A DNA stretch of 64,000 nucleotides from Candidatus Saccharimonadota bacterium (GCA_016282495.1 JAEEKR010000036.1:5594-69593), one strand, 5' to 3'. Counted from the first letter of the stretch, positions 22,352 to 61,012 are shown. Notes: generated by a model from the sequence alone, not told the origin. Translations and numbers: made by a program.

Positions 22352-22387
22352 TAGCAACGTGTGTTTACTGCACAAGTTGGAGGTAAA

Positions 22388-36612: not shown

Positions 36613-37662
36613 ATGAACTTATTACATGGTGTGGGCGATTTCTTTGCACTAGATATCGGAACTAGTTCGCTGAGGTTAGTGCAGCTTTCTGGTGATGCTA
36701 AGAGGGGCTGGTCTTTACAGCGCTATGCGTATGTGCCAGTTGATCCAGGAGTGATTCAAGATAGTAGTGATTTGGGAAAGAAGAAATTAGGTGAAATTAT
36801 TTTGGGCGCAATTGAACAATCTGGAATTAGGACAAAAAATGTAGCAATTGGTATGCCGGCGGAAAAAACCTATACGGCAATTATTGAAGTGCCAAATCAA
36901 TCTGAGAAGGAGCTAGATAAAACTATTAAGTATGAATTAGATCAGTACATTCCAATGGCAGCTGATGAAGCCAAGGCGGATTATGCACTTTTAGGTGTTA
37001 GTCCAAATGATCCATCCAAGGCGGAAGTTTTGATTTCTTCTACGGCGATTGAATATGCTGAGCAGAGGATGGAAATGGTTGAGTCTTTGGGACTTAATGT
37101 GATTGCACAGGAGCCTGAGTCTTTGGCGATGGCACGCGCTTTGATGCCGGTGGATGCGATGGATGCAAGAATGATTGTGGATCTTGGCGAAAAAGCAACA
37201 GACCTTGCAGTTGTTTATAAGGGTGCACCAAGACTTATTCGTTCAGTGGCGGGCGGTATGACCTCGCTTGTGAGAACTGTGGCTTCTACTTTGAATGTTA
37301 AGGAAGATCAAGCTAGACAATTTATCATGAAATTTGGTTTGGCACAGGATAAGGTGGAGGGGCAAGTGTTTAAAGCGCTTGACTCGGTACTTGAAAACTT
37401 TGCATCTGAACTTTCTCGATCGGTGAGATTTTTCCAACAGAAATATGTCAATGTGAAGGTGGGCGGGATTGTGCTTTCTGGTTTTGCTGGGGCAATTCCA
37501 TTTATGGCAGAATATATTGAAGCAAAAACTGGTGTGCCAAGTATTCAAGGTAATCCGTGGCAATTAGTGAGAGTTAGCCCAGATCAGCAAAAAGCGCTGC
37601 TTAGTGTTGCGAGTGAGTTTGCGGTAGTAATCGGACTTGCAGAGAGGAGCAATGAAAGATAA
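36613..37662 (+). CDS. pilM: Type IV pilus assembly protein PilM
   Basis: LDIGTSSL, actin-like fold, VDLG, LSG..G, first gene of the pilus operon. Confidence 0.93.
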   Translation: MNLLHGVGDFFALDIGTSSLRLVQLSGDAKRGWSLQRYAYVPVDPGVIQDSSDLGKKKLGEIILGAIEQSGIRTKNVAIGMPAEKTYTAIIEVPNQSEKELDKTIKYELDQYIPMAADEAKADYALLGVSPNDPSKAEVLISSTAIEYAEQRMEMVESLGLNVIAQEPESLAMARALMPVDAMDARMIVDLGEKATDLAVVYKGAPRLIRSVAGGMTSLVRTVASTLNVKEDQARQFIMKFGLAQDKVEGQVFKALDSVLENFASELSRSVRFFQQKYVNVKVGGIVLSGFAGAIPFMAEYIEAKTGVPSIQGNPWQLVRVSPDQQKALLSVASEFAVVIGLAERSNER

Positions 37663-38816
37663 TGTATGAGATAAATTTAGTACCAGATATTAAAGACCAG
37701 ATGATTAAAGCGCAAAGGGTGCGCAACTTCATATTTTTCATTTGTATTGTGGTGTCGGCGGCCGCGGTGGGTGTAGTTTTGCTTCTTTTGGTAGTGAAAG
37801 GCGCTCAGGATATTAAACTGTCTGGGCAGGATAAGAAGCTGGAACAGATGAGTTTAAAAGTCAACTCGTATAAGGATTTAAATGAATTGTTGACTTTACA
37901 AAACCAATTAAACAAGATTGATGAAATTAGCCAGAACAGAAAGGTATTCTCAAGAGTGTTTAGCATTATTAGTACACTTTTGCCAACGAGTGCGGATAAG
38001 ATTACCATTTCAGAACTGAATGTTAATTTAGGAGAGAACACATTGACTATTGACGGTCAGGCGGATGCAGGAGAGCAGCCAGATATTGATTTCCGTGTTC
38101 TTGAGACGTTTAAGAAAAATGTTTCTGTTATGAAATATGATTATGGTAGGTTTGTCGACAAAAACAATAACGAAATACCTACGAGATGCATCATTGAGTC
38201 TGACGAGAACGGGAATATATATAGAGATGGTAGTAGTGTTATAGTTTATTGGGATCGTGAAAAAAAAGGCTGTGACCCGTCTCGCAATGATGATGAAAAA
38301 GAAGAAACGAATGGTGAGGTCGCATTAGAGAGCGAAAACGATGAGAATACTGGTGTTACGGAAAAAAGCGAAATGGAAGTTATTTATCGTACTCCGAATT
38401 TTAACGAATGGTATGGTAATGGATATATGAAAACTGATGGCACAATTGAAAATATCCCGCATTTCGAGAGTAAATGTATTACATATACTGGTACGGGCGG
38501 TACTAAGGTAAAAGATATAAAATGGATTGTTAATAATAAATGTGATCTTGCAGTGGGCGATATTATTGTTATAGATGAGGATGAGACAACGAATGCAAGA
38601 GATGAAAATGGGAAATTAGTACTCAGATTTAGAGCTACAATTTATTTGAACGAAGATGTACTTTCTTTCCAAAATAAACACATGGTAGCGGTTGGGCCTT
38701 CCGGTAGACAAAACATGACCGACTCATATTTGCAGATTGGTGGAATGTTCGGAAAACGGGCTTCGGATTGCGCCGAGAATGATACGGAATGTTTAAATAA
38801 TCAGAAGAAATCATAA
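37662..38816 (+). CDS. pilN: PilN-like pilus alignment protein with Cys-rich insertion
   Basis: N-terminal EINLVP (PilM-binding INLLP-like motif), TM helix, coiled coil; follows pilM. Confidence 0.75.
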   Translation: MYEINLVPDIKDQMIKAQRVRNFIFFICIVVSAAAVGVVLLLLVVKGAQDIKLSGQDKKLEQMSLKVNSYKDLNELLTLQNQLNKIDEISQNRKVFSRVFSIISTLLPTSADKITISELNVNLGENTLTIDGQADAGEQPDIDFRVLETFKKNVSVMKYDYGRFVDKNNNEIPTRCIIESDENGNIYRDGSSVIVYWDREKKGCDPSRNDDEKEETNGEVALESENDENTGVTEKSEMEVIYRTPNFNEWYGNGYMKTDGTIENIPHFESKCITYTGTGGTKVKDIKWIVNNKCDLAVGDIIVIDEDETTNARDENGKLVLRFRATIYLNEDVLSFQNKHMVAVGPSGRQNMTDSYLQIGGMFGKRASDCAENDTECLNNQKKS

Positions 38817-38826
38817 GGAGAATGAT

Positions 38827-39714
38827 ATGGCACAAGAGGTAGCGATAGGAAAGAGACTAAAGATATCTAAGGCGCAGCAAAATATGCTTCTTGCGGTTGC
38901 GGGGGCATCAATTGTGCTTGGCGTGGGTATTGTTTTTTCGATATGGCTGATAAAATATATTTTCTTTAATATGAAAGTAATTGATGCTAAGGATGTTGCA
39001 ATTTCAGAGTATAATGAGGTGATTAAAGTTACTGGGGCATGCAAGACACCAGCGGCGAGTAGTGGACTTTATTCTGACACTGAAATTGAAAACTGCGATC
39101 CAAATAACGATCCTTCTACCGATGAGAATACTTTGAGGTATAAAATATTGGCTGAAATGGCAAAGAATAATGATTTGGAGTCAGTTGCGCGTGAAGGTGT
39201 ACCACGTTGTTATGATGATAATGGCGATAGGATGAGCTATGATTATATTTATGAGCAATATGAGAAAGCTGAAAGTGACGAGATAAAGGAGTGGTGGCTA
39301 GACACTATCAGAAGTTGTTCGGCGTTGCGCGTGATTCCGGATGCTTTGCCTTCAGTCGAAAATGATGAAGCATTACTCGCTAGCTTAAACCAATTGTTCA
39401 TTTATTCTGGTTGGGAACCAGAATCTTTGAGTCGCGGTCAGAATGAAGAAATTAGTGAAGAGTTGATAATCGAAGGACTTAATACTATTCCTGTTTCTCT
39501 TTCTTTAAAGACGAATAGTAGAACGATACTAAATGTTTTAGGGAAAATTGAGCGATCGATTCGTGAATTCGCAATTAATAAGGCATCGGTCAAATGGGAA
39601 AGTGAGGGTACGCTTGAGCTAGAGGCTGACGCTATGGCATATTATATTGACCCAACCACCATTGAAGAAGAGACTAGGGAAGTAAGAGCTTCAAGCGGAA
39701 GGAGAAGTCAATGA
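38827..39714 (+). CDS. PilO-like pilus alignment protein
   Basis: TM helix, ectodomain, C-terminal L..IERSIR.F.I; positioned after pilN. Confidence 0.65.
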   Translation: MAQEVAIGKRLKISKAQQNMLLAVAGASIVLGVGIVFSIWLIKYIFFNMKVIDAKDVAISEYNEVIKVTGACKTPAASSGLYSDTEIENCDPNNDPSTDENTLRYKILAEMAKNNDLESVAREGVPRCYDDNGDRMSYDYIYEQYEKAESDEIKEWWLDTIRSCSALRVIPDALPSVENDEALLASLNQLFIYSGWEPESLSRGQNEEISEELIIEGLNTIPVSLSLKTNSRTILNVLGKIERSIREFAINKASVKWESEGTLELEADAMAYYIDPTTIEEETREVRASSGRRSQ

Positions 39715-40079
39715 AACAATCAGATCTTATAACTGTGGTGATGATAGCAGTAATAGGCGCAATAGCTGCGTTTGCGTTGGTGAATCTGATGCTTGGGAAC
39801 CCCGATGATTTAGTTGTCGAGTACAAATCTGTATCTAGTGTTGACAATTCTTTAACAGAGCCAGATCCAGAAGTATTTAATTATGGTTCTATCAATCCAA
39901 CGGTAGAAATTGTGATAGGTAATTGTAAAGATCTCGATGGCGATGGCAGTATTAGTGAAGAAGAACAAACTAAGTGCGATAATGATGAGAAGCATAATCC
40001 GGAAGATCCTGATAATCCGGAGCCAACACCTGAGCCTGAACCGACACCGGAGCCGGAGCCAACACCTGTGGGAGAATAA
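39711..40079 (+). CDS. Small membrane-anchored pilus-operon protein with EF-hand-like loop and PEPTP repeats
   Basis: TM helix, C-K-DLDGDGSISEEE-QTK-C, and a tail of three PEPTP repeats. Confidence 0.75.
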   Translation: MKQSDLITVVMIAVIGAIAAFALVNLMLGNPDDLVVEYKSVSSVDNSLTEPDPEVFNYGSINPTVEIVIGNCKDLDGDGSISEEEQTKCDNDEKHNPEDPDNPEPTPEPEPTPEPEPTPVGE

Positions 40080-40085
40080 TGTGAG

Positions 40086-41852
40086 ATGGCGCTCCTAGCG
40101 AAAGAGGCACAAGAAAGAGTAGTGAACCTCATTGTAGATGAGGGCTTAGCTGATTATGAAGCCGTGCAAATGGTTGAGGCTGAAGCGGCGCAAATGAATC
40201 AACCGACTTTAGCGTCGTTGGTAGCAAAGAAGATTGTAAATGATGAGATAGTGGCTCATGCGACCGCTATTGTGATGGGCGTTCCGTATGTAAACTTGCG
40301 TGGCGTAAAAATGGATCAGGAAGATCTTTTGGGGTTACCACAAGAAGTTGCAGAACGAAACATGATGGTGTCGCTCGGAGAGAGAGACGGAAAACTTGTA
40401 GTGGCGATGCTTGATGTGACGAACATCCAGGCAACGGATTATCTTTCTACTTTGACGCATAAGACTATTCGAGCAGTGATGAGTTCCGAAGAGGGAATTA
40501 GATCGGTTCTAGATCAATATAAGGCAGACTTTTCTGGTGTCAAACAGGCGGTTAAACAGACTAAAACTGAGGAAGAGATTGAGAGGCAAAATGCTGATGT
40601 TAAGACGATTACGCAAGATTCGCCGATTTCTAAAGCTCTTACTCAGATTTTGGATTATGCAGCCAAATCAAAAGCTTCGGATATTCATATTGAACCGCTT
40701 GAGGGATCGCTCGTTATTAGATGTCGTGTAGATGGTGTTCTCAGACAGATTATGGAGCTTCCAAAAGCGATTGAGCCAGCTTTGGTTTCTAGAATCAAGA
40801 TTTTGTCGAATTTAAAGATTGATGAACACCGTATCCCACAAGACGGTCAGTTTACGGTGATGGTGGGAGATCAAGAGATTGACCTTCGTATTGCAATTTC
40901 GCCAGTGGTTTGGGGCGAGCAAGTAGTGATTCGTCTTCTTGATAAGACTGGTACAACGATGGAAGTTGAAAAGATGGGTATGACAGGACGTGCACTTAAG
41001 GATGTAATTAATGGGATTAGCAAGCCGAATGGGATGATTTTAACTTCTGGTCCTACAGGTTCTGGTAAGTCCACGACGCTTTATGCACTAATTAAGAAGA
41101 TCAAGAGCGAAGAAATTAATATTGTTACACTTGAGGATCCAGTAGAGTATAAAATGGATGGAGTTAACCAGATCCAGGTTAATGTGGATGCGGGTTTGAC
41201 GTTCGCTTCTGGACTTCGTTCGATTTTGCGTCAAGACCCTGACGTAGTAATGGTAGGTGAGATTCGTGACTCTGAAACGGCAAATTTGGCGGTGCAAGCG
41301 GCGCTTACGGGCCACTTGGTGTTTTCGACGCTCCACACGAACTCTGCAGCTGGTATTTTGCCACGTCTTCTCGAGATGGGTATTGAGCCGTTTTTGATTG
41401 CCTCTACGCTTAATACGGTGATTGGCCAGAGGTTGGTAAGGCGTGTAGCCGAGAAACGGGAAACGTATCAATCTTCTGATTTTGAAACACAAGAAATCAT
41501 GTCTGTACTTGGGGATATTTTGCCAAAGGATCCAAAGGACGTGGCTACTATTAGTGATAATTTAGGATATCCTGGGTTACCACTTGCTGGTCAGAGGTCT
41601 TATACTTTGGTAAAGGGTATTGATACGAAGGATACTCCAGGTGGATATGCTGGACGTGCTGGTCTTTATGAAACAATTGAAGTAGATGAGGATATTCAGA
41701 AGTTGATTGTGGCGCATGCAACGGCCGGAGAAATTATGAAGGTAGCAAAACTTAAGGGAACAGTTACAATGCGTCAAGATGGAATGCTGAAGGCGCTGTC
41801 GGGTATTACAACTATAGATGAAGTTAATAGGGTGGCTAGTGATTTGGCTTAA
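40086..41852 (+). CDS. pilB: Type IV pilus extension ATPase PilB (GspE/PulE family)
   Basis: ASDIHIEP, RIPQDG, GPTGSGKSTT, LRQDPD, TGHLVFSTLHTN. Confidence 0.93.
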   Translation: MALLAKEAQERVVNLIVDEGLADYEAVQMVEAEAAQMNQPTLASLVAKKIVNDEIVAHATAIVMGVPYVNLRGVKMDQEDLLGLPQEVAERNMMVSLGERDGKLVVAMLDVTNIQATDYLSTLTHKTIRAVMSSEEGIRSVLDQYKADFSGVKQAVKQTKTEEEIERQNADVKTITQDSPISKALTQILDYAAKSKASDIHIEPLEGSLVIRCRVDGVLRQIMELPKAIEPALVSRIKILSNLKIDEHRIPQDGQFTVMVGDQEIDLRIAISPVVWGEQVVIRLLDKTGTTMEVEKMGMTGRALKDVINGISKPNGMILTSGPTGSGKSTTLYALIKKIKSEEINIVTLEDPVEYKMDGVNQIQVNVDAGLTFASGLRSILRQDPDVVMVGEIRDSETANLAVQAALTGHLVFSTLHTNSAAGILPRLLEMGIEPFLIASTLNTVIGQRLVRRVAEKRETYQSSDFETQEIMSVLGDILPKDPKDVATISDNLGYPGLPLAGQRSYTLVKGIDTKDTPGGYAGRAGLYETIEVDEDIQKLIVAHATAGEIMKVAKLKGTVTMRQDGMLKALSGITTIDEVNRVASDLA

Positions 41853-41883
41853 AAAATAATAATAGTTATGGTAAAATAGAAAT

Positions 41884-42960
41884 ATGGAAAACAGTGGGCA
41901 GACTCTAAGAATTGAAACTTTGTTGGAAGAATGCGTAAAACGCAATGCTTCAGATCTTCATCTTCAGGTGGGGCTTTCTCCAATTTTGAGGGTTGATGGT
42001 GCGCTTACGCCAGTTCCTGGTACACCAAAGCTAAACAATGCGATGATTGAATCGTTAGTTTTTGCAACGCTGGATGAAAATCAGCAAAAGATTTTGATAA
42101 AAGATAAAGAGTTTGATTATTCTTTTGAATTTGGCGATTTAGCACGTTTTCGCGTGAATGCTTTTCATGAGAGAGGGAATCTTGCGGCGGCGTTTCGTTT
42201 GATTCCAAATAAAATTCAGAATATCGCTGAGCTTGGGATGCCACCAGTTGTAGAATCTTTTGCAGATTATCCGCGTGGGTTAGTGCTTGTGACTGGCCCT
42301 ACAGGTTCTGGTAAGTCTACGACGCTTGCAGCGCTTGTCGATAAAATTAATAGGGAAAAAGCAACTCATATCATTACAATTGAAGACCCGATTGAGTTTA
42401 CGCACAAGTCACAGAGATCGGTAGTGGTGCAGCGTGAAGTACATTATGATACCTATTCATTCTCGATGGCGCTTAGATCTGCGCTTCGTGAAGATCCAGA
42501 TGTGGTGCTTATTGGTGAGATGCGCGATCTCGAAACGATTTCGGCGGCGATTACGATTGCTGAGACTGGCCACTTGGTATTTGCTACACTCCATACAAAC
42601 TCGGCAGCTCAGTCGATTGATCGTATGATTGACGTTTTTCCGGCCCACCAACAGCCGCAGGTACGCTCGCAGCTTGCAAATATTTTGATGGCAATTTGTT
42701 CGCAGAGGTTAATACCGGCGATTAACGGTGGTCGTGTAGTGGCGGCAGAGATTATGGTAGCAAATCCAGCAGTTAGATCTTTAATTCGCGATGGTAAATC
42801 ACATCAGCTTGATACGGTAATTCAGACTGGGGCAAGCCAAGGAATGCAGACAATGGATCGCACACTTGTGAAAATGGTACAGGCCGGTACGATTTCTTAT
42901 GAAGATGCTAAAGATTACGCGGTTGATTTGGCGGAATTTGAAAGGTTGATGAAGGGTTAA
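41884..42960 (+). CDS. pilT: Type IV pilus retraction ATPase PilT
   Basis: ASDLHL, RFRVN, GPTGSGKSTTLAA, ALREDPD, AVRSLIRDGK, GMQTMD. Confidence 0.96.
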   Translation: MENSGQTLRIETLLEECVKRNASDLHLQVGLSPILRVDGALTPVPGTPKLNNAMIESLVFATLDENQQKILIKDKEFDYSFEFGDLARFRVNAFHERGNLAAAFRLIPNKIQNIAELGMPPVVESFADYPRGLVLVTGPTGSGKSTTLAALVDKINREKATHIITIEDPIEFTHKSQRSVVVQREVHYDTYSFSMALRSALREDPDVVLIGEMRDLETISAAITIAETGHLVFATLHTNSAAQSIDRMIDVFPAHQQPQVRSQLANILMAICSQRLIPAINGGRVVAAEIMVANPAVRSLIRDGKSHQLDTVIQTGASQGMQTMDRTLVKMVQAGTISYEDAKDYAVDLAEFERLMKG

Positions 42961-42962
42961 TT

Positions 42963-44168
42963 ATGAAAAGATTTAACTATAGAGCAAAAGATTCAAAGAC
43001 TGGCAAAATTGTTAAGGGTAGTGTTCAGGCTGAAAGTGAACGTGCAGCAGGGAAATTGCTTTTAGATCAGGGCTATATGCCGGAGAAAATTGTCGATGAG
43101 AATGCAGACGGATTATTATCTAAGGCAAAAAGTAAAGTTCCGTCAAAGGACAGGATTATTTTCACGCGTCAATTTGCAACGCTTATAGGTGCAGGGTTGC
43201 CACTTTCTAACAGTTTGCAGACGATTCTAGAGCAAACTGCGTCGAAACCTATGAAGGCTGTAATTGAAGATCTTTTGGCAAGCGTAGAAGCTGGTAAATC
43301 GCTTAGCGATGCTTGTAAAAAACATCCAGATGTTTTTAATAACGTGTATCAATCTTTGGTTGCCGCAGGTGAGATGAGCGGTACTCTAGATGTTGCTTTG
43401 GAGCGTTTAGCAAATCAGCAGGAAAAGGATGCGGCAATGCTTTCTAAAATTAGAGGAGCAATGGTTTATCCGGCAATTATTTTCTTGGTGATTATTGCAG
43501 TGTTAGTGTTTATGATGGTAGCTGTGGTGCCTCAAGTAAAGAGTCTTTATGCGGATATGGGGCAGGAATTGCCTGGGCTTACGGCTTTTCTAGTTCAACT
43601 AGTAGATTTCTTTGGCCAATTTTGGTGGCTGGTACTTATTATAATTGGCGCGATTGTTTGGGGCTTCTTGAGTTTTCGCAAGACAACTACTGGTATTAAA
43701 ACGTTTGCAACGGTTAAATTGAATGTGCCAATTTTTAAGAAGATGTTCCAGAGGCTTTATATGTCACGTCTTGCAAGGACGATGGAAATGCTTTTGTCTA
43801 CAGGGGTGTCGATGCTTGATTCAATGAGTATTTCGGCTAAAGCTACGAGTAATGTGGTAGTAGAAGAGCAGGTGATGATAGCGGCGGAAAAGGTAAAGGC
43901 TGGTAAACCACTAAGTGAAGCTTTAAAGGGAAGAGATTATATTTTGCCGCTTGTGCCACAGATGGCGTCGATTGGTGAAGAGTCTGGTAAAATTGATGAG
44001 ATGCTAGGGAAAGCCGCTACGGTGTACGAAAATGAGCTAGATGAGCTGATCGCAAATATTTCTACAATGATTGAACCGATTTTGATGGTGGTGATGGCGG
44101 GATTGATCGGTATAGTAATCGGTGGTACACTGCTACCAATTTACTCCTTGGTGAGCTCAGTGAAATAG
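42963..44168 (+). CDS. pilC: Type IV pilus platform protein PilC (GspF family)
   Basis: FTRQFATLIGAGLP, AGEMSGTL, GAMVYP, GEESGK, IEP. Confidence 0.95.
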   Translation: MKRFNYRAKDSKTGKIVKGSVQAESERAAGKLLLDQGYMPEKIVDENADGLLSKAKSKVPSKDRIIFTRQFATLIGAGLPLSNSLQTILEQTASKPMKAVIEDLLASVEAGKSLSDACKKHPDVFNNVYQSLVAAGEMSGTLDVALERLANQQEKDAAMLSKIRGAMVYPAIIFLVIIAVLVFMMVAVVPQVKSLYADMGQELPGLTAFLVQLVDFFGQFWWLVLIIIGAIVWGFLSFRKTTTGIKTFATVKLNVPIFKKMFQRLYMSRLARTMEMLLSTGVSMLDSMSISAKATSNVVVEEQVMIAAEKVKAGKPLSEALKGRDYILPLVPQMASIGEESGKIDEMLGKAATVYENELDELIANISTMIEPILMVVMAGLIGIVIGGTLLPIYSLVSSVK

Positions 44169-44327: not shown

Positions 44328-44837
44328 CTAGCTATTGTCGCCACAATAGATACCGGCGCCCTCTAGCTTATAAAGAACTGCGTAATTACGATTTCCTTTT
44401 TTGTATGATACTACACCCTCAGATCCATCTTTACACTTTGCATTTATCATAATATATACTTTATGTCCGCTACCTTCAAATGTGGTACCACTACTTATCT
44501 GAGTTTTTTCGGCGCTAATCGATATTGGAGTTTGAACTTCGTAATTATTGCCATCTGGATCCACAAATGTGTCGCCACCCGTCGTTAGGTAATTGTTCAC
44601 TAATGTATTTTTTGAAGTTGCATCTGTAGGGATTTTGCCGTTGTTATTTGATTGATAAGCTGTTATTGCGCTCATGAGCCTAGACATGTCATCGCGTCTT
44701 TGAGTGTCTCTCTGGCTCCTTTGTAGAGCTGGAAGAGCAATGAACACCATTAAGAAGATAAGCCCAGCAATAGCAAGCACAAGCACAACCTCAATGATGG
44801 TGAAACCCTTCATCGTATTAGTTTGACGTTTTTGCAT
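44328..44837 (-). CDS. pilA: Type IV pilin (probable major pilin)
   Basis: Class III signal KG|FTIIE, hydrophobic alpha1, C-terminal Cys pair, SD AAAGGA, own promoter and terminator. Confidence 0.9.
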   Translation of the reverse strand: MQKRQTNTMKGFTIIEVVLVLAIAGLIFLMVFIALPALQRSQRDTQRRDDMSRLMSAITAYQSNNNGKIPTDATSKNTLVNNYLTTGGDTFVDPDGNNYEVQTPISISAEKTQISSGTTFEGSGHKVYIMINAKCKDGSEGVVSYKKGNRNYAVLYKLEGAGIYCGDNS

Positions 44838-44883
44838 TATTGTTCCTTTCTTTGCTCGCTAATCTCTTAGCGGCGCTTTAAAA

Positions 44884-44926
44884 TTATGCTTAATATAAGC
44901 ATAAACTAAAAAATTTTTTTTTGCAA
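44884..44926 (-). promoter_or_regulatory. Putative pilin promoter TTGCAA-17bp-TATGCT with A9T6 tract and overlapping palindrome
   Basis: Spacer is exactly 17 bp. Perfect IR TTATGCTTA-ATA-TAAGCATAA covers the -10. Confidence 0.5.
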
Positions 44927-44952
44927 GAGTTTTGCTAGGGAAAATGCGGTTT

Positions 44953-46953
44953 TTATTTTACGATCCAGATGTTAGGATCAAGATCTAAACTATTTGTTGG
45001 AGAGTCGATTTTATTGGCGTGTGTAAAGCAGTCGGTGTCTTTGTCCTCATAATAGAGACGATATATGATGTACGGTGGGTGGCTGAGACGACTTGTGGTG
45101 CTATCTTCGTCTTTTTTCAAACATGCTGGTTCGGTTGGCGGATATTGTTCGTTGAATGACCAGCATCCGTAAAAGGTCAAAGCGTGCATTATAGAAAGCA
45201 TATTTTTGGTTATAATTACTATTACTTTTGCGTCTTGGTGAGTTAATTCCAGTAGACTATCTGCTTGCTCATTTGTAAAACTGTGTTCTGAGGTTAGAAC
45301 ACTTTTTGCCTCATCTTTAGGCATGACGAGGATTTGTTTTAATAATCTTGAGCCATTTGCGTAATCGCCGACGATGGATTTGGCGAGCTCTGGTGCTTGG
45401 AGGTTAGAGTTTGCGAGCATCTTGAAAATTCTAGAAGATAATAGTTCGTCTTCTGTTAAGAAAGCGTTTGCGAGCCAATAATAAACGTGGCTATCATATG
45501 TCCCGCCATCGGCAAGGACTTTTAGGTTGGTGCCATATTCATAATAATAGCCGTAATCCCACCACGAGGCGATAGTATAATCGTTGTCGATGTTTTCGTT
45601 TATCCACGAATTAGTCGTTGTCAATGAGTCGTCAACTGACGGGACAGTGCCTTCTGGAACGGCGTAGCTCCTGAAACTTGGGAGGCAAACTAAAACCCAA
45701 ACGAGCAAGAGGATAATTTTACCGCGCCAGGATGTATGAATTTTCTCGTATAGGATACCTAGTCCGATTCCGGCAAGCAAAGCAGCTGGAATAGCCGCAT
45801 TTTTAATGAATCTCATGCCGAAACTAGAACTTACGGTCCCAACCAAAAGCCAGATTATAAGAATGGTGCTTGTGAGAAATAGCGGATCGGTTTTTTGATT
45901 GTGATTTTTTAAGAATGTGAAATTTTTTTGGGCAAATAAGATAATAATTACGCCTAGAGTAATTACTAGGGGAAATGCACCTAACGAATTGACGATGCCA
46001 CATGGTACGGTATCAAAAATATGGAAGACATCACCTGAGTATAATGGACAAGAGTTGAGCTCGGAAACATAAGCGCCTGGGCTTGGAAAACCTGTACCGC
46101 CGCTAATTGTGAGTGCTGCTATATTAATTATTGATCTAAGATGATCGTGCATTATGAGCGAAGTTAGTATCAGTAAAAGAGGGAATATTAATGCGATTTT
46201 GAATTCACTATGCGAAAAGGATGGTTTAAGTTTAAACTTGTTTTTGATGAGTATGGTTAAGATGGTTATTAAGCTGATAAAAATTGCAATTATGGCGTAA
46301 ATAAAACTGCTTTCCCAAGTAAAGGCTAAAAGGAGAAAGCTCAAAGTGGCAATGAATAAACAAGCAAGGCTTTTTTTGCGGTTTTTTGTTTCAATGGCTA
46401 TGATGTACGAACATAACATAGTTGTTGGTAAAAGGGTTAATAAGATATCGGTGTCGAAACGTGTTGCCATGGTAAAGCCTACAAGGATTGGGCTAGTGCC
46501 AAGTAATATTGCGGCGGTGAAACCACCGAAGCGATTGGTTTTTCTTTTGACAAAAATGTATGCTGGTATACAGGAAAGGGCAAAGATAAATGGGCCAATA
46601 TAACAGATTAGAGTTTCCAAGGAGATATGCGTGAGAGGATTGAGTAGTTTATATGTAGTGACAGTCGTAAATGGCAAAAGGTTGTAGTTTCCAAAATTTG
46701 AGAAAAGTGATGGCTCCTGGTTCAAGTCAAAGGCTTGTTTGGCGTAGAAATAAGAATCTGGATCGTATAAGTATGGGTTGCCTTCTTCTGTATGAAGTCC
46801 ATCAATGAATTCTTGGCTAAGCTCTTTCGGAGCGGCAATGGAACGGTATTTTTCGAGATTATCGAATGCGGACGGGAGGCGGACTAAAACAGCTACAGTC
46901 ATAGCAATAATAATTAAGATTATATCTAATATGTAGCGCTTTTTAACCTCCAT
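44953..46953 (-). CDS. STT3/PglB/AglB-family oligosaccharyltransferase
   Basis: Polytopic N-terminal half with DPDSY, RFDTD (DXD), VSE (TIXE/SVSE-like) and GMRF; soluble C-terminal domain with WWDYG and DGGT. Confidence 0.9.
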   Translation of the reverse strand: MEVKKRYILDIILIIIAMTVAVLVRLPSAFDNLEKYRSIAAPKELSQEFIDGLHTEEGNPYLYDPDSYFYAKQAFDLNQEPSLFSNFGNYNLLPFTTVTTYKLLNPLTHISLETLICYIGPFIFALSCIPAYIFVKRKTNRFGGFTAAILLGTSPILVGFTMATRFDTDILLTLLPTTMLCSYIIAIETKNRKKSLACLFIATLSFLLLAFTWESSFIYAIIAIFISLITILTILIKNKFKLKPSFSHSEFKIALIFPLLLILTSLIMHDHLRSIINIAALTISGGTGFPSPGAYVSELNSCPLYSGDVFHIFDTVPCGIVNSLGAFPLVITLGVIIILFAQKNFTFLKNHNQKTDPLFLTSTILIIWLLVGTVSSSFGMRFIKNAAIPAALLAGIGLGILYEKIHTSWRGKIILLLVWVLVCLPSFRSYAVPEGTVPSVDDSLTTTNSWINENIDNDYTIASWWDYGYYYEYGTNLKVLADGGTYDSHVYYWLANAFLTEDELLSSRIFKMLANSNLQAPELAKSIVGDYANGSRLLKQILVMPKDEAKSVLTSEHSFTNEQADSLLELTHQDAKVIVIITKNMLSIMHALTFYGCWSFNEQYPPTEPACLKKDEDSTTSRLSHPPYIIYRLYYEDKDTDCFTHANKIDSPTNSLDLDPNIWIVK

Positions 46954-47005
46954 ATATGTGTAGATTATAGCACACGGATGATGATGGTTATGGTATTATA
47001 TATTT

Positions 47006-47881
47006 ATGGATGTAGATACTAGTATGAACATCATGATTTTGATTTTTCTTTTCATAATGGGTTCAGTTGTGGGATCGTTTGCTTGTTGCCAAGCTTGGCG
47101 TTGGCGCTATAAGATTGAGAAAAACAAGGATTTAGGAAAAAGATCTATTTGTTTGCACTGTAAATATCAGCTGAAATGGTATGACAATATTCCGGTGGTC
47201 TCGTGGCTATTTCTTCGGGGAAAATGCCGCAAGTGTCACAAACCAATTGGTGCGGCAGAGATTTTGAGTGAAGTTGGTATGGGTGCAGCGTTCACGCTGG
47301 CAGGTTGGGCCTATCTAATTCCTATTATTAACAACTGGGATATTTTGCTTTCGATTGATGCGGCGGCAATTTATCTGAAGCTCGGAGAGATGGTGGGGGT
47401 ATTGGCGATTTTGGTGGTGATGGGGATCTTGGCGGTTTATGACGCAAAGTGGGGGGAACTGCCGGTGTCGCTTTTGATTGTTTCTAATATTCTTGGTGCG
47501 GCGATTTTGGCTTGTAAAGAGGTAAGACTTTATATAACTGGCGAAGATTGGATTGGGGGGCTTTATAGTGCTGGTTTTGGCGTAGTAATTCTAGCTGGAG
47601 TATGCTGTATGATTTACAAAGTTTCACATGAGCGGCTGATGGGCGGGGGAGACTGGATTTTAGCACTTGCGATTGCATTGGCAATAGGTGACTGGTGGTT
47701 ATCACTTTGGGCAATGTTCCTTGCAAATCTTCTTGGCGATTTGATAATGCTCCCAACGGTTATTAGCACTAAAAACAGCGTACTACACTTTGGGCCGTTC
47801 CTAGTGATGGCTTATATTATGGTATTTGTGCTAGGCAATGCCTTGCCGGTTTTGATTACAATTGACTTTCTGGGCTTTTAA
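47006..47881 (+). CDS. pilD: Prepilin peptidase
   Basis: GSF, RS.C..C...L.WYDNIPVVSWLFLRGKCRKC, GGGD, FGPFL. Confidence 0.93.
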   Translation: MDVDTSMNIMILIFLFIMGSVVGSFACCQAWRWRYKIEKNKDLGKRSICLHCKYQLKWYDNIPVVSWLFLRGKCRKCHKPIGAAEILSEVGMGAAFTLAGWAYLIPIINNWDILLSIDAAAIYLKLGEMVGVLAILVVMGILAVYDAKWGELPVSLLIVSNILGAAILACKEVRLYITGEDWIGGLYSAGFGVVILAGVCCMIYKVSHERLMGGGDWILALAIALAIGDWWLSLWAMFLANLLGDLIMLPTVISTKNSVLHFGPFLVMAYIMVFVLGNALPVLITIDFLGF

Positions 47882-53770: not shown

Positions 53771-55237
53771 ATGAAGAATATATCAAAAAGGTGGATGCTA
53801 ATTGCAGGGTTTTCTGTAGTGGTATTCATTGGGCTCAGCCTTTTAATTGGGCTTAGACAGAGTGTTTGGTTTGATGAAGCCTATTCAATTAATCTGGCTA
53901 AACGTGATTTTGGCGAGATTATTGATTTGACATCTGTTGATGTGCATCCGCCTGCATACTATCTTTTATTAAAAATATGGGGAACAGTTTTTGGATTTAG
54001 CGAGTTATCTTTGAGAGCGTTAAGCATTCTTGCTATGGCTTTGGCGATAGTTGTTGGAATAATATTGATAAAAAAGATTGCTGGAACAAAAGCTGCGGTT
54101 TTAGCAAGTTTGTTTTTGAGCTTGTCGCCGATGTTGATTAGATATGGATTTGAAATCAGGATGTATGCACTAGCTACACTGATCGCCGTTCTTGCAAGTT
54201 TAGTATTATGGGATATCTTACATAGTGTTGATAGGCGTAAGAAGCGACTTTTGCAGCTTCTTTATGCGTGTTTAGTCGCGATTGGGATGTTGACGCTTTA
54301 TTATACGATTGTGGTCTGGGTAACCCACCTTGTGTATTTGGTATACAGAACGAAGAAAGAGAAAAAACCTATTTTAAAACAAGATTTTTGGATAGTATAT
54401 GCTTTGTCGGTTTTGATTTTCTTGCCATGGTTGCCAGTTGTATTTGGACAGCTTGGAAACGGGGCTTTGGCTGCTATTTCTGAAAAGTTGAATCTGACGA
54501 ATATGATGGGGATTGTGTCATTTAACTTTATTTATCGGCCAGTTTGGCAAACTGATCAAATATTGGGGTTAGTGTTGATGATTTTTGTTATAGCATTAAT
54601 TGTGGTTTTAGTAAGGTTGAAATTTCGAGATGCGGAAAAAAGGGATGGTTTTATATTCTTGGTTTTTCTAGCAATAGCACCAATTATATTAGAATTCATT
54701 ATTTGTTTAGTCGCTCCGATGTATGTAGAACGATATTTGGTTTATTCTGCGCCATTTTTGATTATGTTGGTAGTAATAATCTGTTTAAATTCAGAATGGA
54801 AAAAAATTCTTATTGCTTATACCGGCGGCGTCTTGATTTTGGGCTTGGTTAACTTGTGGCAGGTTGGAAATTATAATTTTCAAAGATTACAAAAACCAGA
54901 TATTAAAAAAATCTCTATGGAGATATCAGAGCATAATAAAGATACTGCAATTATGGCGGATTCTCCGTATGAGGCAATCGAGCTGGGTTATTATCTTGAT
55001 GAGGAGAGCTATTTTTATGCTCCATATGAAAAGTTATCTGGTGGATATGCAGTGCTTGATGGAAGTGAGAAACAAATACGAAATGAAGAGGACCTGAATA
55101 GATTTAGGTGTGTACGTTATGTTTTTTATGATGAAAATAGTGAGGGTGGGGTATTATTGACGAGAGAAGGATTTGAAGTAGAAAAAAGGAAAAATGTGGA
55201 GGGGGCTATGAAATATAAGGATTTATGTAGAAACTAG
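53771..55237 (+). CDS. GT-C fold glycosyltransferase (family 39/ArnT/PMT_2-like)
   Basis: SVWFDEAYS, DVHPP.YY, E.RMY, ERY; polytopic. Confidence 0.88.
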   Translation: MKNISKRWMLIAGFSVVVFIGLSLLIGLRQSVWFDEAYSINLAKRDFGEIIDLTSVDVHPPAYYLLLKIWGTVFGFSELSLRALSILAMALAIVVGIILIKKIAGTKAAVLASLFLSLSPMLIRYGFEIRMYALATLIAVLASLVLWDILHSVDRRKKRLLQLLYACLVAIGMLTLYYTIVVWVTHLVYLVYRTKKEKKPILKQDFWIVYALSVLIFLPWLPVVFGQLGNGALAAISEKLNLTNMMGIVSFNFIYRPVWQTDQILGLVLMIFVIALIVVLVRLKFRDAEKRDGFIFLVFLAIAPIILEFIICLVAPMYVERYLVYSAPFLIMLVVIICLNSEWKKILIAYTGGVLILGLVNLWQVGNYNFQRLQKPDIKKISMEISEHNKDTAIMADSPYEAIELGYYLDEESYFYAPYEKLSGGYAVLDGSEKQIRNEEDLNRFRCVRYVFYDENSEGGVLLTREGFEVEKRKNVEGAMKYKDLCRN

Positions 55238-56013
55238 TCGTAATAGCCTTTTCTTTTGGCGCGCTTGATTTTGATAATGTCAGAAAACATGCGTGCGGAA
55301 TCTTTGACAATGTTGACCCGATTGGTGTCGTGATGTTTCCATTTAATAGGCACTTCTTTAACGTCTAAACCTTTGTTTTTGGCGATTACAAATAATTCGA
55401 CGTCAAAAGCACCGGTGAAAGCTCCGGTTTCTGAAACGCGCTTAGGGTCATAGACGTAAAGTTTATCGAAAAGTTTAGCGCCTTTTTTACTAAAAAGCTT
55501 AAAACCACATTGAGTATCTCTAATCTTGAGCCCGGTAATAGTTCTGACGATGAGATTAAAGGTGTTGCCAATGAACTCACGGTACCATTTAGCTTCTACG
55601 GCTTTTGGATTGATTTTTCGTGACCCGAAAATAATATCGAAGTTTTTTCCTGTGTAAGGAAGAAGTTTCTCAATTTCTTTTATGTCAGTGCTTTGATCAA
55701 AGTCTGTGAAAAGCTTCCACTCTCCTTTAGCGTGTTTTATTCCATTCATGACTGCGCTAGTTTTGCCGCCATGCTTATTCATTAGTAGCGATATCGTACC
55801 ATGCTTCAATTTTGTTTCATTTTCGGAAATAAACTGTTTCAATAGAGAGACAGTTTGATCAGAGGAGCCGTCGTCGGAAAAAATTAATTCATAATGGTAT
55901 TTTTGTTGCTCTAGATAAGGAAGGATTTTATTGAGGCAACCTTCTTTGAAATTGGTCGATTCGTTGTAAGAGGGAATTACGACTGACAGGAATATATTAG
56001 AATCTTTGCTCAT
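55234..56013 (-). CDS. GT2 polyprenyl-phosphate glycosyltransferase (Alg5/DPG synthase-like)
   Basis: SVVIPSYNE, DDGS.D.T, GK..AV..G, FTDFD, DTQCGFKLF, FDVEL. Confidence 0.9.
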   Translation of the reverse strand: MSKDSNIFLSVVIPSYNESTNFKEGCLNKILPYLEQQKYHYELIFSDDGSSDQTVSLLKQFISENETKLKHGTISLLMNKHGGKTSAVMNGIKHAKGEWKLFTDFDQSTDIKEIEKLLPYTGKNFDIIFGSRKINPKAVEAKWYREFIGNTFNLIVRTITGLKIRDTQCGFKLFSKKGAKLFDKLYVYDPKRVSETGAFTGAFDVELFVIAKNKGLDVKEVPIKWKHHDTNRVNIVKDSARMFSDIIKIKRAKRKGYYD

Positions 56014-60207: not shown

Positions 60208-60966
60208 ATGTTTGATCTTAAAGGTAGAGTAGCGGTTATAACTGGGGCAAGTTCAGGCCTGGGGCGCCAGATGGCGAGGGCTTTTTCTAAACAAGGTGCG
60301 GATCTAGTGGTGCTGGCTCGAAGAATGGAAAGGTTAGAAGAGCTGAAGAAAGAACTGGAACAATATGGCGGAAAGGTTTTGCCAATAAAATGCGATGTAA
60401 CTTCTTCTGATGATATAGATAATGCGGCAAAAATTGCGGAGCAGGAGTTTTCGAAAGTTGATATTTTGGTAAACTGTGCTGGCTCGTCTAAAGATGCGGG
60501 CGTACTCGAAATGAAAGATGATGAATGGGATTTTACGATCAACACAGATTTAACATCGGTGTTTAAAATGACGAGAACATTTGGGAGCATTATGAAGAAG
60601 CATAAGTATGGACGAATTATCAATATTGCCTCAATGTATGGATTAGTCGGAAATAATGAGATCCCGACGATTGCGTATCACGCATCAAAGGGTGGGGTAG
60701 TTAACTTTACGAGAGCAGCCGCGGCTGAGCTTGCGAAATACAATATAACCGTAAATTGCATTTGCCCAGGATATTTTTATACTGAACTTACAACGGAAGT
60801 TTTGGATAGCGATTACTTTAAAAAATTTGCTGATGCGCATGTGCCGATGAAAAGGTATGGAAAAGAAGGGGAATTAAACGCTGGCGCGATTTTTTTGGCG
60901 AGTGACGAAGCAAGCTATGTGACTGGTGTAGTTTTGCCGATTGACGGTGGGTATACCTGCGTTTAG
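60208..60966 (+). CDS. Short-chain dehydrogenase/reductase
   Basis: TGASSGLG, VNCAG, YHASK, IDGG. Confidence 0.93.
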   Translation: MFDLKGRVAVITGASSGLGRQMARAFSKQGADLVVLARRMERLEELKKELEQYGGKVLPIKCDVTSSDDIDNAAKIAEQEFSKVDILVNCAGSSKDAGVLEMKDDEWDFTINTDLTSVFKMTRTFGSIMKKHKYGRIINIASMYGLVGNNEIPTIAYHASKGGVVNFTRAAAAELAKYNITVNCICPGYFYTELTTEVLDSDYFKKFADAHVPMKRYGKEGELNAGAIFLASDEASYVTGVVLPIDGGYTCV

Positions 60967-61012
60967 AGTAAAACGTATTTATTTTCTAAAACGCTTATGC
61001 TATTATTTTGAT

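What the first reader, a model, noticed from the sequence alone, without database searches (positions are those of the whole stretch)
44328..47881. STT3/AglB-type oligosaccharyltransferase inside the type IV pilus locus, between pilin and prepilin peptidase
Seen: the 666-aa gene carries the full STT3 motif set (DPDSY, RFDTD, VSE, GMRF, WWDYG, DGGT). It lies directly upstream of pilA on the same strand and back-to-back with pilD. Known: bacterial pilins are usually O-glycosylated by PglL/TfpO-type enzymes, whereas AglB N-glycosylates archaeal archaellins and pilins. Bacterial PglB is best known from Campylobacterota and some Deltaproteobacteria. Inference: the layout (GNPYLYDPDSYF, GFPS...VSE, YWLANAF, QIL.M....A...LT.....T..QA......H, FYG.W.F) looks to me like Methanobacteriales AglB. 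This suggests an archaeal-type N-glycosylation system for pilus or surface proteins in a CPR epibiont, possibly acquired horizontally. Caveat: the mature pilin has no N-X-S/T sequon, so the substrate may be PilN (NVS, NMT, NDT), the VirB2-like pilin or other surface proteins.
Basis: partly seen in the sequence, partly recalled or inferred. Interest (0 to 1): 0.85.

Follow-up and report, generated by a model that had tools for sequence, protein, structure and literature searches.

The report
Borrowed N-glycosylation enzyme in gut Saccharibacteria
A tiny gut epibiont bacterium carries, between two of its pilus genes, an intact relative of the enzyme that attaches sugars to asparagine; it was likely acquired from gut Firmicutes rather than straight from archaea and would sugar-coat some surface proteins, but its own main pilin has no attachment site.

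Summary
Observation confirmed. ORF 44953-46953(-) is a full STT3/PglB/AglB oligosaccharyltransferase by Pfam, predicted fold and motifs, lying between pilA and pilD. It is rare (2 of 369 genus genomes). The closest genome lacking it has pilA back to back with pilD, so it is most likely an insertion. It has its own host-style promoter, pilA keeps a separate one, and strain variants are mostly synonymous (32 of 40 listed). In trees it sits inside a gut-Bacillota clade that groups with Methanobacteriales AglB; a clade of it with Methanobacteriaceae AglB alone is rejected (AU p=6e-7). The likely route is methanogen, then Bacillota, then Saccharibacteria.

Pilus dedication is weakly supported. PilA has no sequon; pilins and surface proteins show no sequon excess. 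The one conserved PilN site also occurs in enzyme-less genomes. A related Saccharibacterium keeps its homologue near pnp, and 1 of 21 presumed-Bacillota loci has a pilin nearby.

Best reading: an accessory, likely active N-glycosylation enzyme for a few surface proteins; activity untested. The scan earlier noted STT3 genes beside pilins on other DNA (Omnitrophota, other CPR, a Clostridia-like genome).

The parts
44953..46953 (-). stt3: single-subunit N-oligosaccharyltransferase (GT66), 666 aa; D64xD66, D167TD169, YVSE298, R381, WWDYG464-468, DGGT482-485, MI-type M585xxI588
46964..46972 (-). Extended -10 promoter-like site TGCTATAAT, 10 nt before the stt3 ATG (leaderless type); inferred own promoter of stt3
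   Evidence: Sequence; same site in G477, and TGGTATAAT before the L024 homologue; 91 of 541 G000 ORFs have TGnTATAAT 3-13 nt before an in-frame ATG, mode 6 nt
44898..44926 (-). sigma70-like promoter of pilA (TTGCAA-17-TATGCT) between stt3 and pilA; inferred
   Evidence: Conserved in G000, G477 and enzyme-less G703 (TTGCAA-17-TATGAT); read by eye from the three intergenic sequences, not listed by the consensus scan
44328..44837 (-). pilA, type IV major pilin, 169 aa; no N-X-S/T sequon
46991..46999 (+). Extended -10-like site TGGTATTAT, 6 nt before the pilD ATG; inferred
   Evidence: Sequence; equivalent sites on the pilD side in G477 and G703
47006..47881 (+). pilD, prepilin peptidase A24, 291 aa
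   Evidence: PF06750 E 7.5e-22
37662..38816 (+). pilN-like gene (named by position; no Pfam hit); three sequons, none specific to enzyme-bearing genomes
36613..44168 (+). pilM-pilN-pilO-pilP-like-pilB-pilT-pilC assembly operon (context; gene names from motifs and order, recalled knowledge)
   Evidence: same order in G477, G421, G518, G640 and, from pilO on, G703

Best explanation
The gene encodes a full-length STT3/PglB/AglB-family membrane enzyme with all its core catalytic motifs, which likely transfers a lipid-linked sugar onto Asn-X-Ser/Thr of a few exported surface proteins, not specifically the major pilin, and was likely acquired from gut Bacillota. Shown: family, predicted fold, motif set, rarity, an empty site in the nearest enzyme-less relative, purifying selection, and nesting in a bacterial clade that groups with Methanobacteriales AglB. 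Inferred: (1) one old methanogen-to-Bacillota transfer, then Bacillota-to-Saccharibacteria; (2) insertion between the divergent pilA and pilD promoters, a variable site, with its own leaderless-type promoter; (3) the donor glycan comes from the undecaprenyl pathway on contig C6, either an Und-PP glycan (phosphoglycosyltransferase, GT1, Wzm/Wzt) or an Und-P monosaccharide from the GT2+DUF2304 (GacI/GacJ-like) pair, the latter resembling the monophosphate donors of euryarchaeal AglB; (4) D66, D167/D169 and E298 bind the metal and activate the amide, while WWDYG and the MI motif read the +2 Ser/Thr (by analogy to PglB/AglB); (5) acceptors are whichever surface proteins carry accessible sequons, the best candidate being the sequon-repeat PxTG protein at G000 C9:39931-40842.
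For: Family and fold. Motifs aligned to PglB-like and AglB rows; motif definitions from passages of PMC8342417. Distribution: 2 of 369 genus genomes; 1 of 401 family genomes over the PF02516 cut-off; 1 strong and 2 weak (E 2e-5, 4e-4) matches in 401 phylum genomes. Empty site: G703 (median 69% identity) has pilD and pilA back to back, 116 nt apart; none of 29 other genus pilD loci shows the gene within 1.5 kb. Selection: 32 synonymous and 8 non-synonymous among the 40 listed of 84 strain differences, no frameshift in the ORF; against G477 pN 0.21 with pS saturated at 0.76. Codon use ameliorated (46th percentile of 299 genes). Tree: clade of the window's protein 100/99, inside bacterial clades 100/99, 100/100 and 100/100, then joined with Methanobacteriales-type rows 97/97; AU p=6e-7 against a direct grouping with Methanobacteriaceae. 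Donor pathway genes in G000. GT2+DUF2304 lies upstream of stt3 in 6 of the 21 presumed-Bacillota loci (Pfam run on chosen neighbours only), and the G477 GT2 is 51-55% identical to three of those GT2s.
Against: There is no proteome-wide trace of N-glycosylation. N-X-S/T observed/expected in predicted ectodomains is 1.00 (G000) and 1.02 (G477), against 1.03 and 0.98 in enzyme-less G594 and G703. Sequons are no better conserved between G000 and G477 than control motifs (0.41 vs 0.32-0.41). The column that is Arg in PglB-like and most outgroup archaeal rows (R147 of PglB, number recalled) is His in most Methanobacteriaceae rows and Phe160 here. Some members of the same clade have damaged motifs (DWGYG in P0006, WWETG in L024, WCDLG in P0011). 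The C9 candidate (13 sequons vs 6.3 expected, p=0.0016) is one of 92 proteins tested, is repeat-driven and has no orthologue in G477. The GT2+DUF2304 pair also occurs in enzyme-less G703. No RNA or glycopeptide data.
Confidence: 0.55

Rival explanations
1. Pilus-dedicated system: the enzyme was retained beside pilA because it N-glycosylates pilins, for example to mask pili from phage or tune host binding. The G000 major pilin would be an allele that lost its sequon, or the minor pilins on contig C17 are the targets.
For: Same position in both sister species. Each of the three G477 pilin genes at this site has exactly one sequon. stt3 diverges between G000 and G477 (63%) about as fast as PilA (61%), PilN (66%) and PilO (70%). 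G000 minor pilins carry 3, 3 and 1 sequons. Clostridial locus L026 has a pilin with two sequons at the head of a GT2-DUF2304-GT2-LicD-membrane protein-stt3 run. Archaeal AglB does modify pilins (PMC5131992 passages).
Against: G000 PilA has 0 sequons (2.2 expected, P(0)=0.08). Pilin totals are below expectation in G000 (6 vs 7.1) and G477 (7 vs 8.8), while 20 pilins from enzyme-less genomes have 45 vs 39.6. L024, whose PNPase is 92% identical to G000's, has its homologue downstream of pnp. Only 1 of 21 presumed-Bacillota loci has a pilin in the DNA held, and flanks were short in several. pilA has its own promoter. Unrelated cargo genes sit upstream of pilD in other genus members (L115, L117).
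Confidence: 0.2
2. Repurposed GT-C: in this gut clade the enzyme no longer modifies proteins but moves a sugar from Und-P or Und-PP onto a cell-wall glycan or lipid, as GacL does, or mainly hydrolyses the lipid donor.
For: In Bacillota the gene often sits in glycan clusters beside GT2+DUF2304, flippases and LicD; GacI/GacJ feed a GT-C that decorates polyrhamnose (10.1101/180810 passages). No sequon signal in proteomes. The conserved Arg column is lost, and WWDYG is eroded in some clade members.
Against: The peptide-reading elements (xVSE, WWDYG, MxxI) are intact here and in G477, and WWDxG is kept in most of the clade. The fold is closer to STT3/PglB (Z 30-32.5) than to DPY19, PMT, ArnT or Aft (Z up to 22.6).
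Confidence: 0.12
3. Passenger: a gene that arrived with foreign DNA, has no matching donor or acceptor, and is on its way out.
For: Very patchy: 2 of 369 in the genus, 1 of 140 Lachnospiraceae-family and 0 of 140 phylum-wide Bacillota genomes besides the centre genome. Faster protein divergence than 84% of orthologues. Damaged motifs in some relatives.
Against: Intact in two species whose synonymous sites are saturated, with pN far below pS in every segment; 32:8 synonymous excess among strains; host-style promoter kept in three Saccharibacterial loci.
Confidence: 0.1
4. Direct transfer from a Methanobacteriales archaeon, the strongest form of the first reader's reading.
For: Shared features: GxPY..D.DSY, FDTD, FP....VSE, DGG(T/S). 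Methanobacteriaceae AglB is among the homologues found, and Methanobacteriales-type rows join the bacterial clade at 97/97.
Against: Bacterial relatives score far higher (E 1e-79 to 1e-111 vs 1e-44); several nested, fully supported bacterial clades intervene; AU p=6e-7.
Confidence: 0.03

Closest known systems
Methanobacteriales AglB (e.g. Methanobrevibacter STT3-domain proteins P0029, P0039, P0047; GT66)
   Same: Nearest named archaeal group; shares FDTD, xVxE, WWDxG and DGG(T/S), and lacks the Arg that PglB has seven residues before the second DxD.
   Different: About 900 aa against 666 aa; D/M-x-x-K motif (SSDMxxK) against MI-type MLSI; the loci seen lie between a topoisomerase and a GTP-binding protein gene (L025, L036, L037); separated from the window's protein by the whole Bacillota radiation.
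Campylobacter lari / C. jejuni PglB (PDB 3rce, 5ogl, 6gxc)
   Same: Best solved-structure match by sequence (E 9e-8, profile E 6e-24) and by Foldseek (E 6e-16); DxD, DTD, xxxE, R, WWDYG and MI-type motif; bacterial single-subunit enzyme.
   Different: About 18% identity; a separate clade outside the Methanobacteriales-plus-Bacillota group; NCBIfam PglB score 43 against cut-off 1300; no pgl operon beside it; DGGT rather than DGGK.
Archaeoglobus fulgidus AglB-L (PDB 3waj, 5gmy, 7e9s) and pilin/archaellin N-glycosylation by AglB in Methanococcus and Haloferax
   Same: Same fold (Z 25-29); AglB modifies pilins among other surface proteins (PMC5131992 passages).
   Different: Bacterial host with undecaprenyl carriers (inferred); the adjacent pilin has no sequon; TIGR04154 score 24 against cut-off 450.
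PglL/TfpO-type pilin O-oligosaccharyltransferases and O-antigen ligases (Wzy_C, PF04932)
   Same: Lipid-linked glycan transfer at the outer membrane face (recalled). G000 encodes one such protein in its glycan cluster (C6:4133-5542), with matches in G477 and enzyme-less G594.
   Different: A different family; this gene is not the one beside pilA. It is the more ancestral candidate for pilin O-glycosylation in these bacteria (inference).
GacI/GacJ/GacL of Streptococcus pyogenes (GT2 + DUF2304 + GT-C)
   Same: A GT2+DUF2304 pair lies upstream of stt3 in 6 of 21 presumed-Bacillota loci and in the glycan clusters of G000 and G477; such a pair makes GlcNAc-P-Und (10.1101/180810 passages).
   Different: GacL decorates polyrhamnose, not protein; the pair is not adjacent to stt3 in Saccharibacteria and is present in enzyme-less G703.

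Membership tests
STT3/AglB/PglB N-oligosaccharyltransferase (GT66) | PF02516 and PF21436 domains over cut-off | tested here: met
   61.7 vs 24.5 bits and 42.3 vs 23 bits
STT3/AglB/PglB N-oligosaccharyltransferase (GT66) | GT-C membrane domain plus C-terminal globular domain with the STT3 fold | tested here: met
   Predicted model pLDDT 85.7; Z 32.5, rmsd 3.5, 509 aligned to yeast Stt3 8age; Z 30.7 to PglB 3rce
STT3/AglB/PglB N-oligosaccharyltransferase (GT66) | 13 transmembrane helices | tested here: inconclusive
   A simple hydropathy scan finds 11 segments; the model has about 13 long helices before residue 435; membrane embedding not computed
STT3/AglB/PglB N-oligosaccharyltransferase (GT66) | Two DxD motifs (EL1, EL2) and TIXE/SVSE glutamate (EL5) | tested here: met
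   D64-P-D66, D167-T-D169, Y-V-S-E298, aligned to PglB-like and AglB rows; the first position of TIXE/SVSE is Tyr
STT3/AglB/PglB N-oligosaccharyltransferase (GT66) | WWDYG and DK/MI motifs (Ser/Thr pocket) | tested here: met
   WWDYG 464-468; M585-L-S-I588 aligns with MLSI of PglB-type P0042
STT3/AglB/PglB N-oligosaccharyltransferase (GT66) | DGGK motif and phosphate-binding Arg | tested here: inconclusive
   R381 conserved; DGG present but Lys replaced by Thr, as Thr/Ser in most Methanobacteriaceae rows
STT3/AglB/PglB N-oligosaccharyltransferase (GT66) | Transfers a lipid-linked glycan to Asn of N-X-S/T | not testable with these tools
   No assay; indirect sequon statistics gave no signal
Methanobacteriales AglB (orthologue group) | Falls inside or directly sister to the Methanobacteriaceae AglB clade | tested here: not met
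   AU p=5.95e-7; nested among Bacillota rows
Campylobacter-type PglB | NF050801 over cut-off and monophyly with PglB | tested here: not met
   43 vs 1300 bits; separate clade
Pilin-dedicated glycosylation system | Acceptor motif on the adjacent pilin | tested here: not met
   0 sequons in G000 PilA; 1 each in the three G477 pilins, at or below chance
Pilin-dedicated glycosylation system | Recurring linkage to pilin genes across independent lineages | tested here: inconclusive
   One shared insertion (G000, G477); L024 near pnp; 1 of 21 presumed-Bacillota loci. Loci of eight other clade members (P0002, P0004-P0006, P0010, P0011, P0202, P0205) were not obtained

The most novel reading that the evidence does not exclude
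A methanogen-derived N-glycosylation enzyme passed through gut Bacillota into an epibiont and now N-glycosylates a bacterial type IV pilus, using an archaeal-style monophosphate-linked donor (Und-P-HexNAc from the GacI/GacJ-like pair). Pilin alleles at this variable locus gain and lose the sequon (one each in G477, none in G000) as a switch for phage evasion or host choice.
Probability: 0.15. Interest if true: 0.8.

Novelty: new variant of a known kind. Interest (0 to 1): 0.5.

Why it matters
The papers I read in passages treat OST-type bacterial N-glycosylation through Campylobacter and Desulfobacterota PglB. Here a separate bacterial branch, 126 of the 215 proteins in my largest tree (few have names), groups with Methanobacteriales AglB, occurs in gut Bacillota and has reached Saccharibacteria. 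My searches found no paper describing it. If active, it adds monoderm gut bacteria and CPR epibionts to the N-glycosylating lineages, and it gives a testable handle on Saccharibacterial surface glycosylation, which PMC11623550 calls unexplored. It also offers a compact 666-aa single-subunit OST that may take relaxed sequons or monophosphate donors, of interest for glycoengineering. The more striking claim, N-glycosylated CPR pili, is not supported by the sequence evidence.

Tried and rejected
1. D/E-x-N-x-S/T depletion in ectodomains of enzyme-bearing genomes (0.61 and 0.71) looked like avoidance of an extended sequon. Enzyme-less G703 shows the same 0.61, so it was rejected.
2. PilN as substrate: site 351 is a sequon in all seven aligned genomes, five of them without the enzyme.
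3. VirB2-like pilins: sequons are as common in G594 and G703 as in G000 and G477.
4. A compositional sign of recent transfer: none; GC 39.7%, GC3 0.40, codon use at the 46th percentile.
5. Viral contigs and plasmids: no relative.
6. The first FastTree put Methanobacteriaceae inside the Bacillota rows with weak support; denser sampling placed them outside a fully supported bacterial clade, so that nesting was dropped.
7. The consensus promoter scan found no more sites than shuffles (9 vs 9.6); the promoters reported rest on cross-genome conservation and the genome-wide count.
8. Sequencing runs: no RNA holder listed. Run X4 has exact pieces of pilC, pilA and xerC but no cover over most of stt3 and no contig joining across it; this is uninformative.
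9. The ESM Atlas did not hold either query.
10. Host names for the nearest unnamed relatives could not be obtained; calling L021-L023 and L031 Bacilli rests on 24-27% GC and a YutD-like gene in L031.
11. Earlier-findings look-ups by sequence and by genome returned nothing.
12. No complex prediction was run, since an enzyme-substrate pair is a poor use of it.
Full report
OBSERVATION. The window holds pilM-pilN-pilO-pilP-like-pilB-pilT-pilC on the + strand (36613-44168), then pilA (44328-44837, -), a 666-aa ORF (44953-46953, -), pilD (47006-47881, +) and xerC (pil gene names other than pilA and pilD are from motifs and order, recalled knowledge). The ORF passes Pfam STT3 (E 1.2e-16) and STT3-PglB_core (E 1.3e-10), but not the NCBIfam PglB or archaeal TIGR04154 cut-offs. 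Its best PDB sequence hit is C. lari PglB. An AlphaFold2 model from an 18-row alignment (pLDDT 85.7) matches PglB at Foldseek E 6e-16. It matches yeast and human STT3 and PglB at Z 28-32.5 and A. fulgidus AglB at Z 25-29, above DPY19, PMT and ArnT (Z up to 22.6).

ACTIVE SITE. Against the motif list in passages of PMC8342417, the protein has D64-P-D66, D167-T-D169, Y-V-S-E298, R381, WWDYG 464-468, DGGT 482-485 and an MI-type M585-L-S-I588. Two departures stand out. The Lys of DGGK is Thr, as it is Thr or Ser in most Methanobacteriaceae rows. The Arg seven residues before the second DxD (R147 in PglB, number recalled) is His in most Methanobacteriaceae rows and Phe160 here. Some relatives in the same clade have damaged WWDYG motifs; this protein and its G477 orthologue do not.

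HOST AND DISTRIBUTION. The G477 protein sits at near-zero distance from P0003, whose cluster mate P0043 is named Candidatus Saccharibacteria bacterium; G477 is in the window's genus. Contigs from sheep, bovine and other gut runs lie on the gene at 94-100% identity, and one bridges the pilA/stt3 junction. The gene was found in 2 of 369 genus genomes, in 1 of 401 family genomes over the PF02516 cut-off, and strongly in 1 of 401 phylum genomes, with two weak hits not followed up. G477 (median 85% identity) has it at the same site, 63% identical, followed by three pilin genes. G703, the next-closest genome by PilC (77%; median 69%), has pilD and pilA back to back and no STT3 hit in the stretches fetched. 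Of 29 other pilD loci, 21 have a pilin-like ORF next to pilD, 5 have pilC directly, and at least two (L115, L117) have unrelated genes there. The pilC-pilD interval is therefore a variable cassette, and stt3 is most simply an insertion in the ancestor of G000 and G477. L024, whose PNPase is 92% identical to G000's (closer than G703's 84%), carries a 36%-identical homologue downstream of pnp, with no pil gene in the 4.8 kb held upstream and no DNA held downstream.

EXPRESSION AND SELECTION. stt3 has TGCTATAAT 10 nt before its ATG; the same element is in G477 and, as TGGTATAAT, in L024. This is the host's common leaderless-type signal: 91 of 541 ORFs have it, and 134 of 270 such sites are followed by ATG within 3-13 nt against 44 at a control offset. 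pilA keeps TTGCAA-17-TATGCT, conserved in G477 and in enzyme-less G703. The two genes therefore need not form an operon (inference; no RNA holder was listed). Of 84 strain differences, 40 were listed: 32 synonymous, 8 non-synonymous, no frameshift inside the ORF. Against G477, pN is 0.21 while pS is saturated (0.76). The protein evolves faster than most orthologues, at the rate of PilN, PilO and the Wzy_C ligase, but under purifying selection, and its codon use is host-like.

ORIGIN. The closest homologues are four unnamed proteins at 55-64% identity, then a band at 30-35%, then Lachnospiraceae, Solobacterium and Methanobrevibacter proteins. Ten GTDB genomes hit by the peptide scan are all rumen or gut Bacillota. 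I ran IQ-TREE (LG+G4, mixture model off) on 51 rows chosen from 215. It gives a clade of the window's protein with L024 and unnamed rows (100/99), inside a 12-row clade with low-GC contigs (100/99), inside clades holding named Lachnospiraceae, Eubacterium and Clostridia rows (100/100). That bacterial clade joins Methanobacteriales-type rows at 97/97, with PglB outside. Caveats: most rows lack names; the Bacilli label for L021-L023 and L031 rests on 24-27% GC and a YutD-like gene; the root is set on distant archaeal-type rows; and the order among the 12-row clade's subgroups is open, so the exact donor is unknown. Passages of PMC4973528 already report at least two euryarchaeon-to-bacterium transfers of this gene with later spread among bacteria; whether its Fig. 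6 includes this clade I could not see. The gene is also patchy in the donors: 1 of 140 genomes of a Lachnospiraceae-centred family draw and 0 of 140 of its phylum, besides the centre genome.

DONOR GLYCAN. G000 contig C6 encodes a phosphoglycosyltransferase (PF02397), a GT1, a Wzy_C ligase, GtrA, an epimerase, an ABC exporter pair, DUF2142, GT2+DUF2304 and a further GT2; contig C42 adds dTDP-sugar genes and more GTs. No Wzx-type flippase was found in this 90%-complete genome. In 6 of 21 presumed-Bacillota loci a GT2+DUF2304 pair lies upstream of stt3 (only chosen neighbours were scanned, and several loci are close kin). In S. pyogenes such a pair makes GlcNAc-P-Und (10.1101/180810 passages), and Euryarchaeota use monophosphate donors (PMC8342417). 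A monophosphate donor is thus plausible but inferred, and the pair also occurs in enzyme-less G703.

SUBSTRATE. This is the weak point. PilA has no sequon despite 12 Asn in its globular part (2.2 expected, P(0) 0.08). Pilin sequon totals are at or below chance in G000 and G477, and no lower in enzyme-less genomes. Predicted ectodomains (a crude hydropathy class of 71-95 proteins per genome) show observed/expected N-X-S/T of 1.00, 1.02, 1.03 and 0.98 in G000, G477, G594 and G703, and no extra conservation between G000 and G477. PilN site 351 is a sequon in all seven genomes aligned, five lacking the enzyme. After an earlier scan note claimed constant pilin linkage for a Clostridial STT3, I scanned 27 loci: a pilin was found in 1 of 21 presumed-Bacillota loci (L026), none of 5 archaeal loci and not in L024; one further hit in L028 was a short fragment that I dropped as not pilin-like. 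One G000 protein stands out, C9:39931-40842, a PxTG-tailed surface protein with GGNTT/GNGT repeats: 13 sequons against 6.3 expected, reversed motif 2, p 0.0016 uncorrected among 92 proteins, no orthologue in G477. A recently gained enzyme with few targets would leave no proteome-wide signal, so these nulls weaken pilus dedication more than they weaken activity.

MECHANISM AND VERDICT. Most likely this is an accessory, host-integrated N-oligosaccharyltransferase that uses an undecaprenyl-linked donor and modifies a few surface proteins (0.55). Rivals are a pilus-dedicated system (0.2), a repurposed glycan transferase (0.12), a passenger (0.1) and direct archaeal transfer (0.03). No activity is shown.

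LITERATURE. Searches: oligosaccharyltransferase with Patescibacteria (1 paper, on archaeal pili, listing only), with candidate phyla radiation (1, on Asgard archaea, listing only), STT3 with Saccharibacteria (0), PglB with homologs and Lachnospiraceae (0), and broader ones (listings only, apart from the six papers read in passages). None described this clade by title or abstract. PMC11623550 (passages) predicts only O-glycosylation of TM7x pilins and never uses the words oligosaccharyl or sequon. PMC12229607 (passages) describes characterised bacterial OSTs from Campylobacter and Desulfobacterota. No supplements were opened, subscription journals are largely missing from the library, and archaeal AglB phylogenies that I recall but could not read may list Bacillota homologues. 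The scan's earlier notes report STT3 genes in pilus operons of Omnitrophota, other CPR and a Clostridia-like genome; those are unchecked, and the Omnitrophota ones describe sequon-rich pilins, which this locus lacks.

Noticed in passing
L259:11932-12843 (G000 C9:39931-40842): 303-aa PxTG-tailed surface protein with a Gly/Asn/Thr repeat linker holding 9 sequons in 60 residues; no Pfam family; follows an LRR-dockerin protein.
   Followed up: partly
genome-wide G000: TGnTATAAT sits 3-13 nt (mode 6) before an in-frame ATG in 91 of 541 ORFs, suggesting widespread leaderless transcription.
   Followed up: partly
L026:5062-11980: Clostridial locus with a type IV pilin (two sequons) heading GT2, DUF2304, GT2, LicD, a membrane protein and stt3: a better candidate for pilin N-glycosylation than the window.
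   Followed up: partly
L020:4400-6043 (G477): Three pilin-like genes in mixed orientation between stt3 and pilC; one is a 200-aa form with a different hydrophobic N-terminus lacking the usual class III cleavage motif.
   Followed up: no
window 53771-56013: PMT_2-type GT-C gene (488 aa) convergent with a GT2; the GT-C has no match in G477, G594 or the G477 locus, while the GT2 is kept in G477: a second accessory glycosyltransferase 7 kb from stt3.
   Followed up: partly
L131:9196-14168 versus L174:13534-19998: The glycan cluster after the ABC exporter is swapped between sister species: DUF2142 proteins 22% and GT2s 40% identical, each GT2 closer (51-55%) to different Bacillota copies.
   Followed up: partly
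L260:3731-7233 (G000 C17): Second pilin locus with two N-methyl minor pilins and two larger pilin-like genes.
   Followed up: partly
P0006, P0011, L024, P0233-P0271 group: Several clade members have eroded WWDYG motifs (DWGYG, WCDLG, WWETG, FWSLG), hinting at altered acceptor recognition or decay.
   Followed up: no
window 17643-18449 and 22361-23377: Zeta_toxin-family and RhuM/Fic-family genes among housekeeping genes.
   Followed up: no
window 60941-63172: Clostripain-family peptidase with an N-terminal zinc ribbon, after a glutathione peroxidase, an oxidoreductase and a short-chain dehydrogenase.
   Followed up: no
L143 (G872) and L144 (G766): Weak matches (E 2e-5, 4e-4) to the STT3 profile in two other Patescibacteria families.
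   Followed up: no
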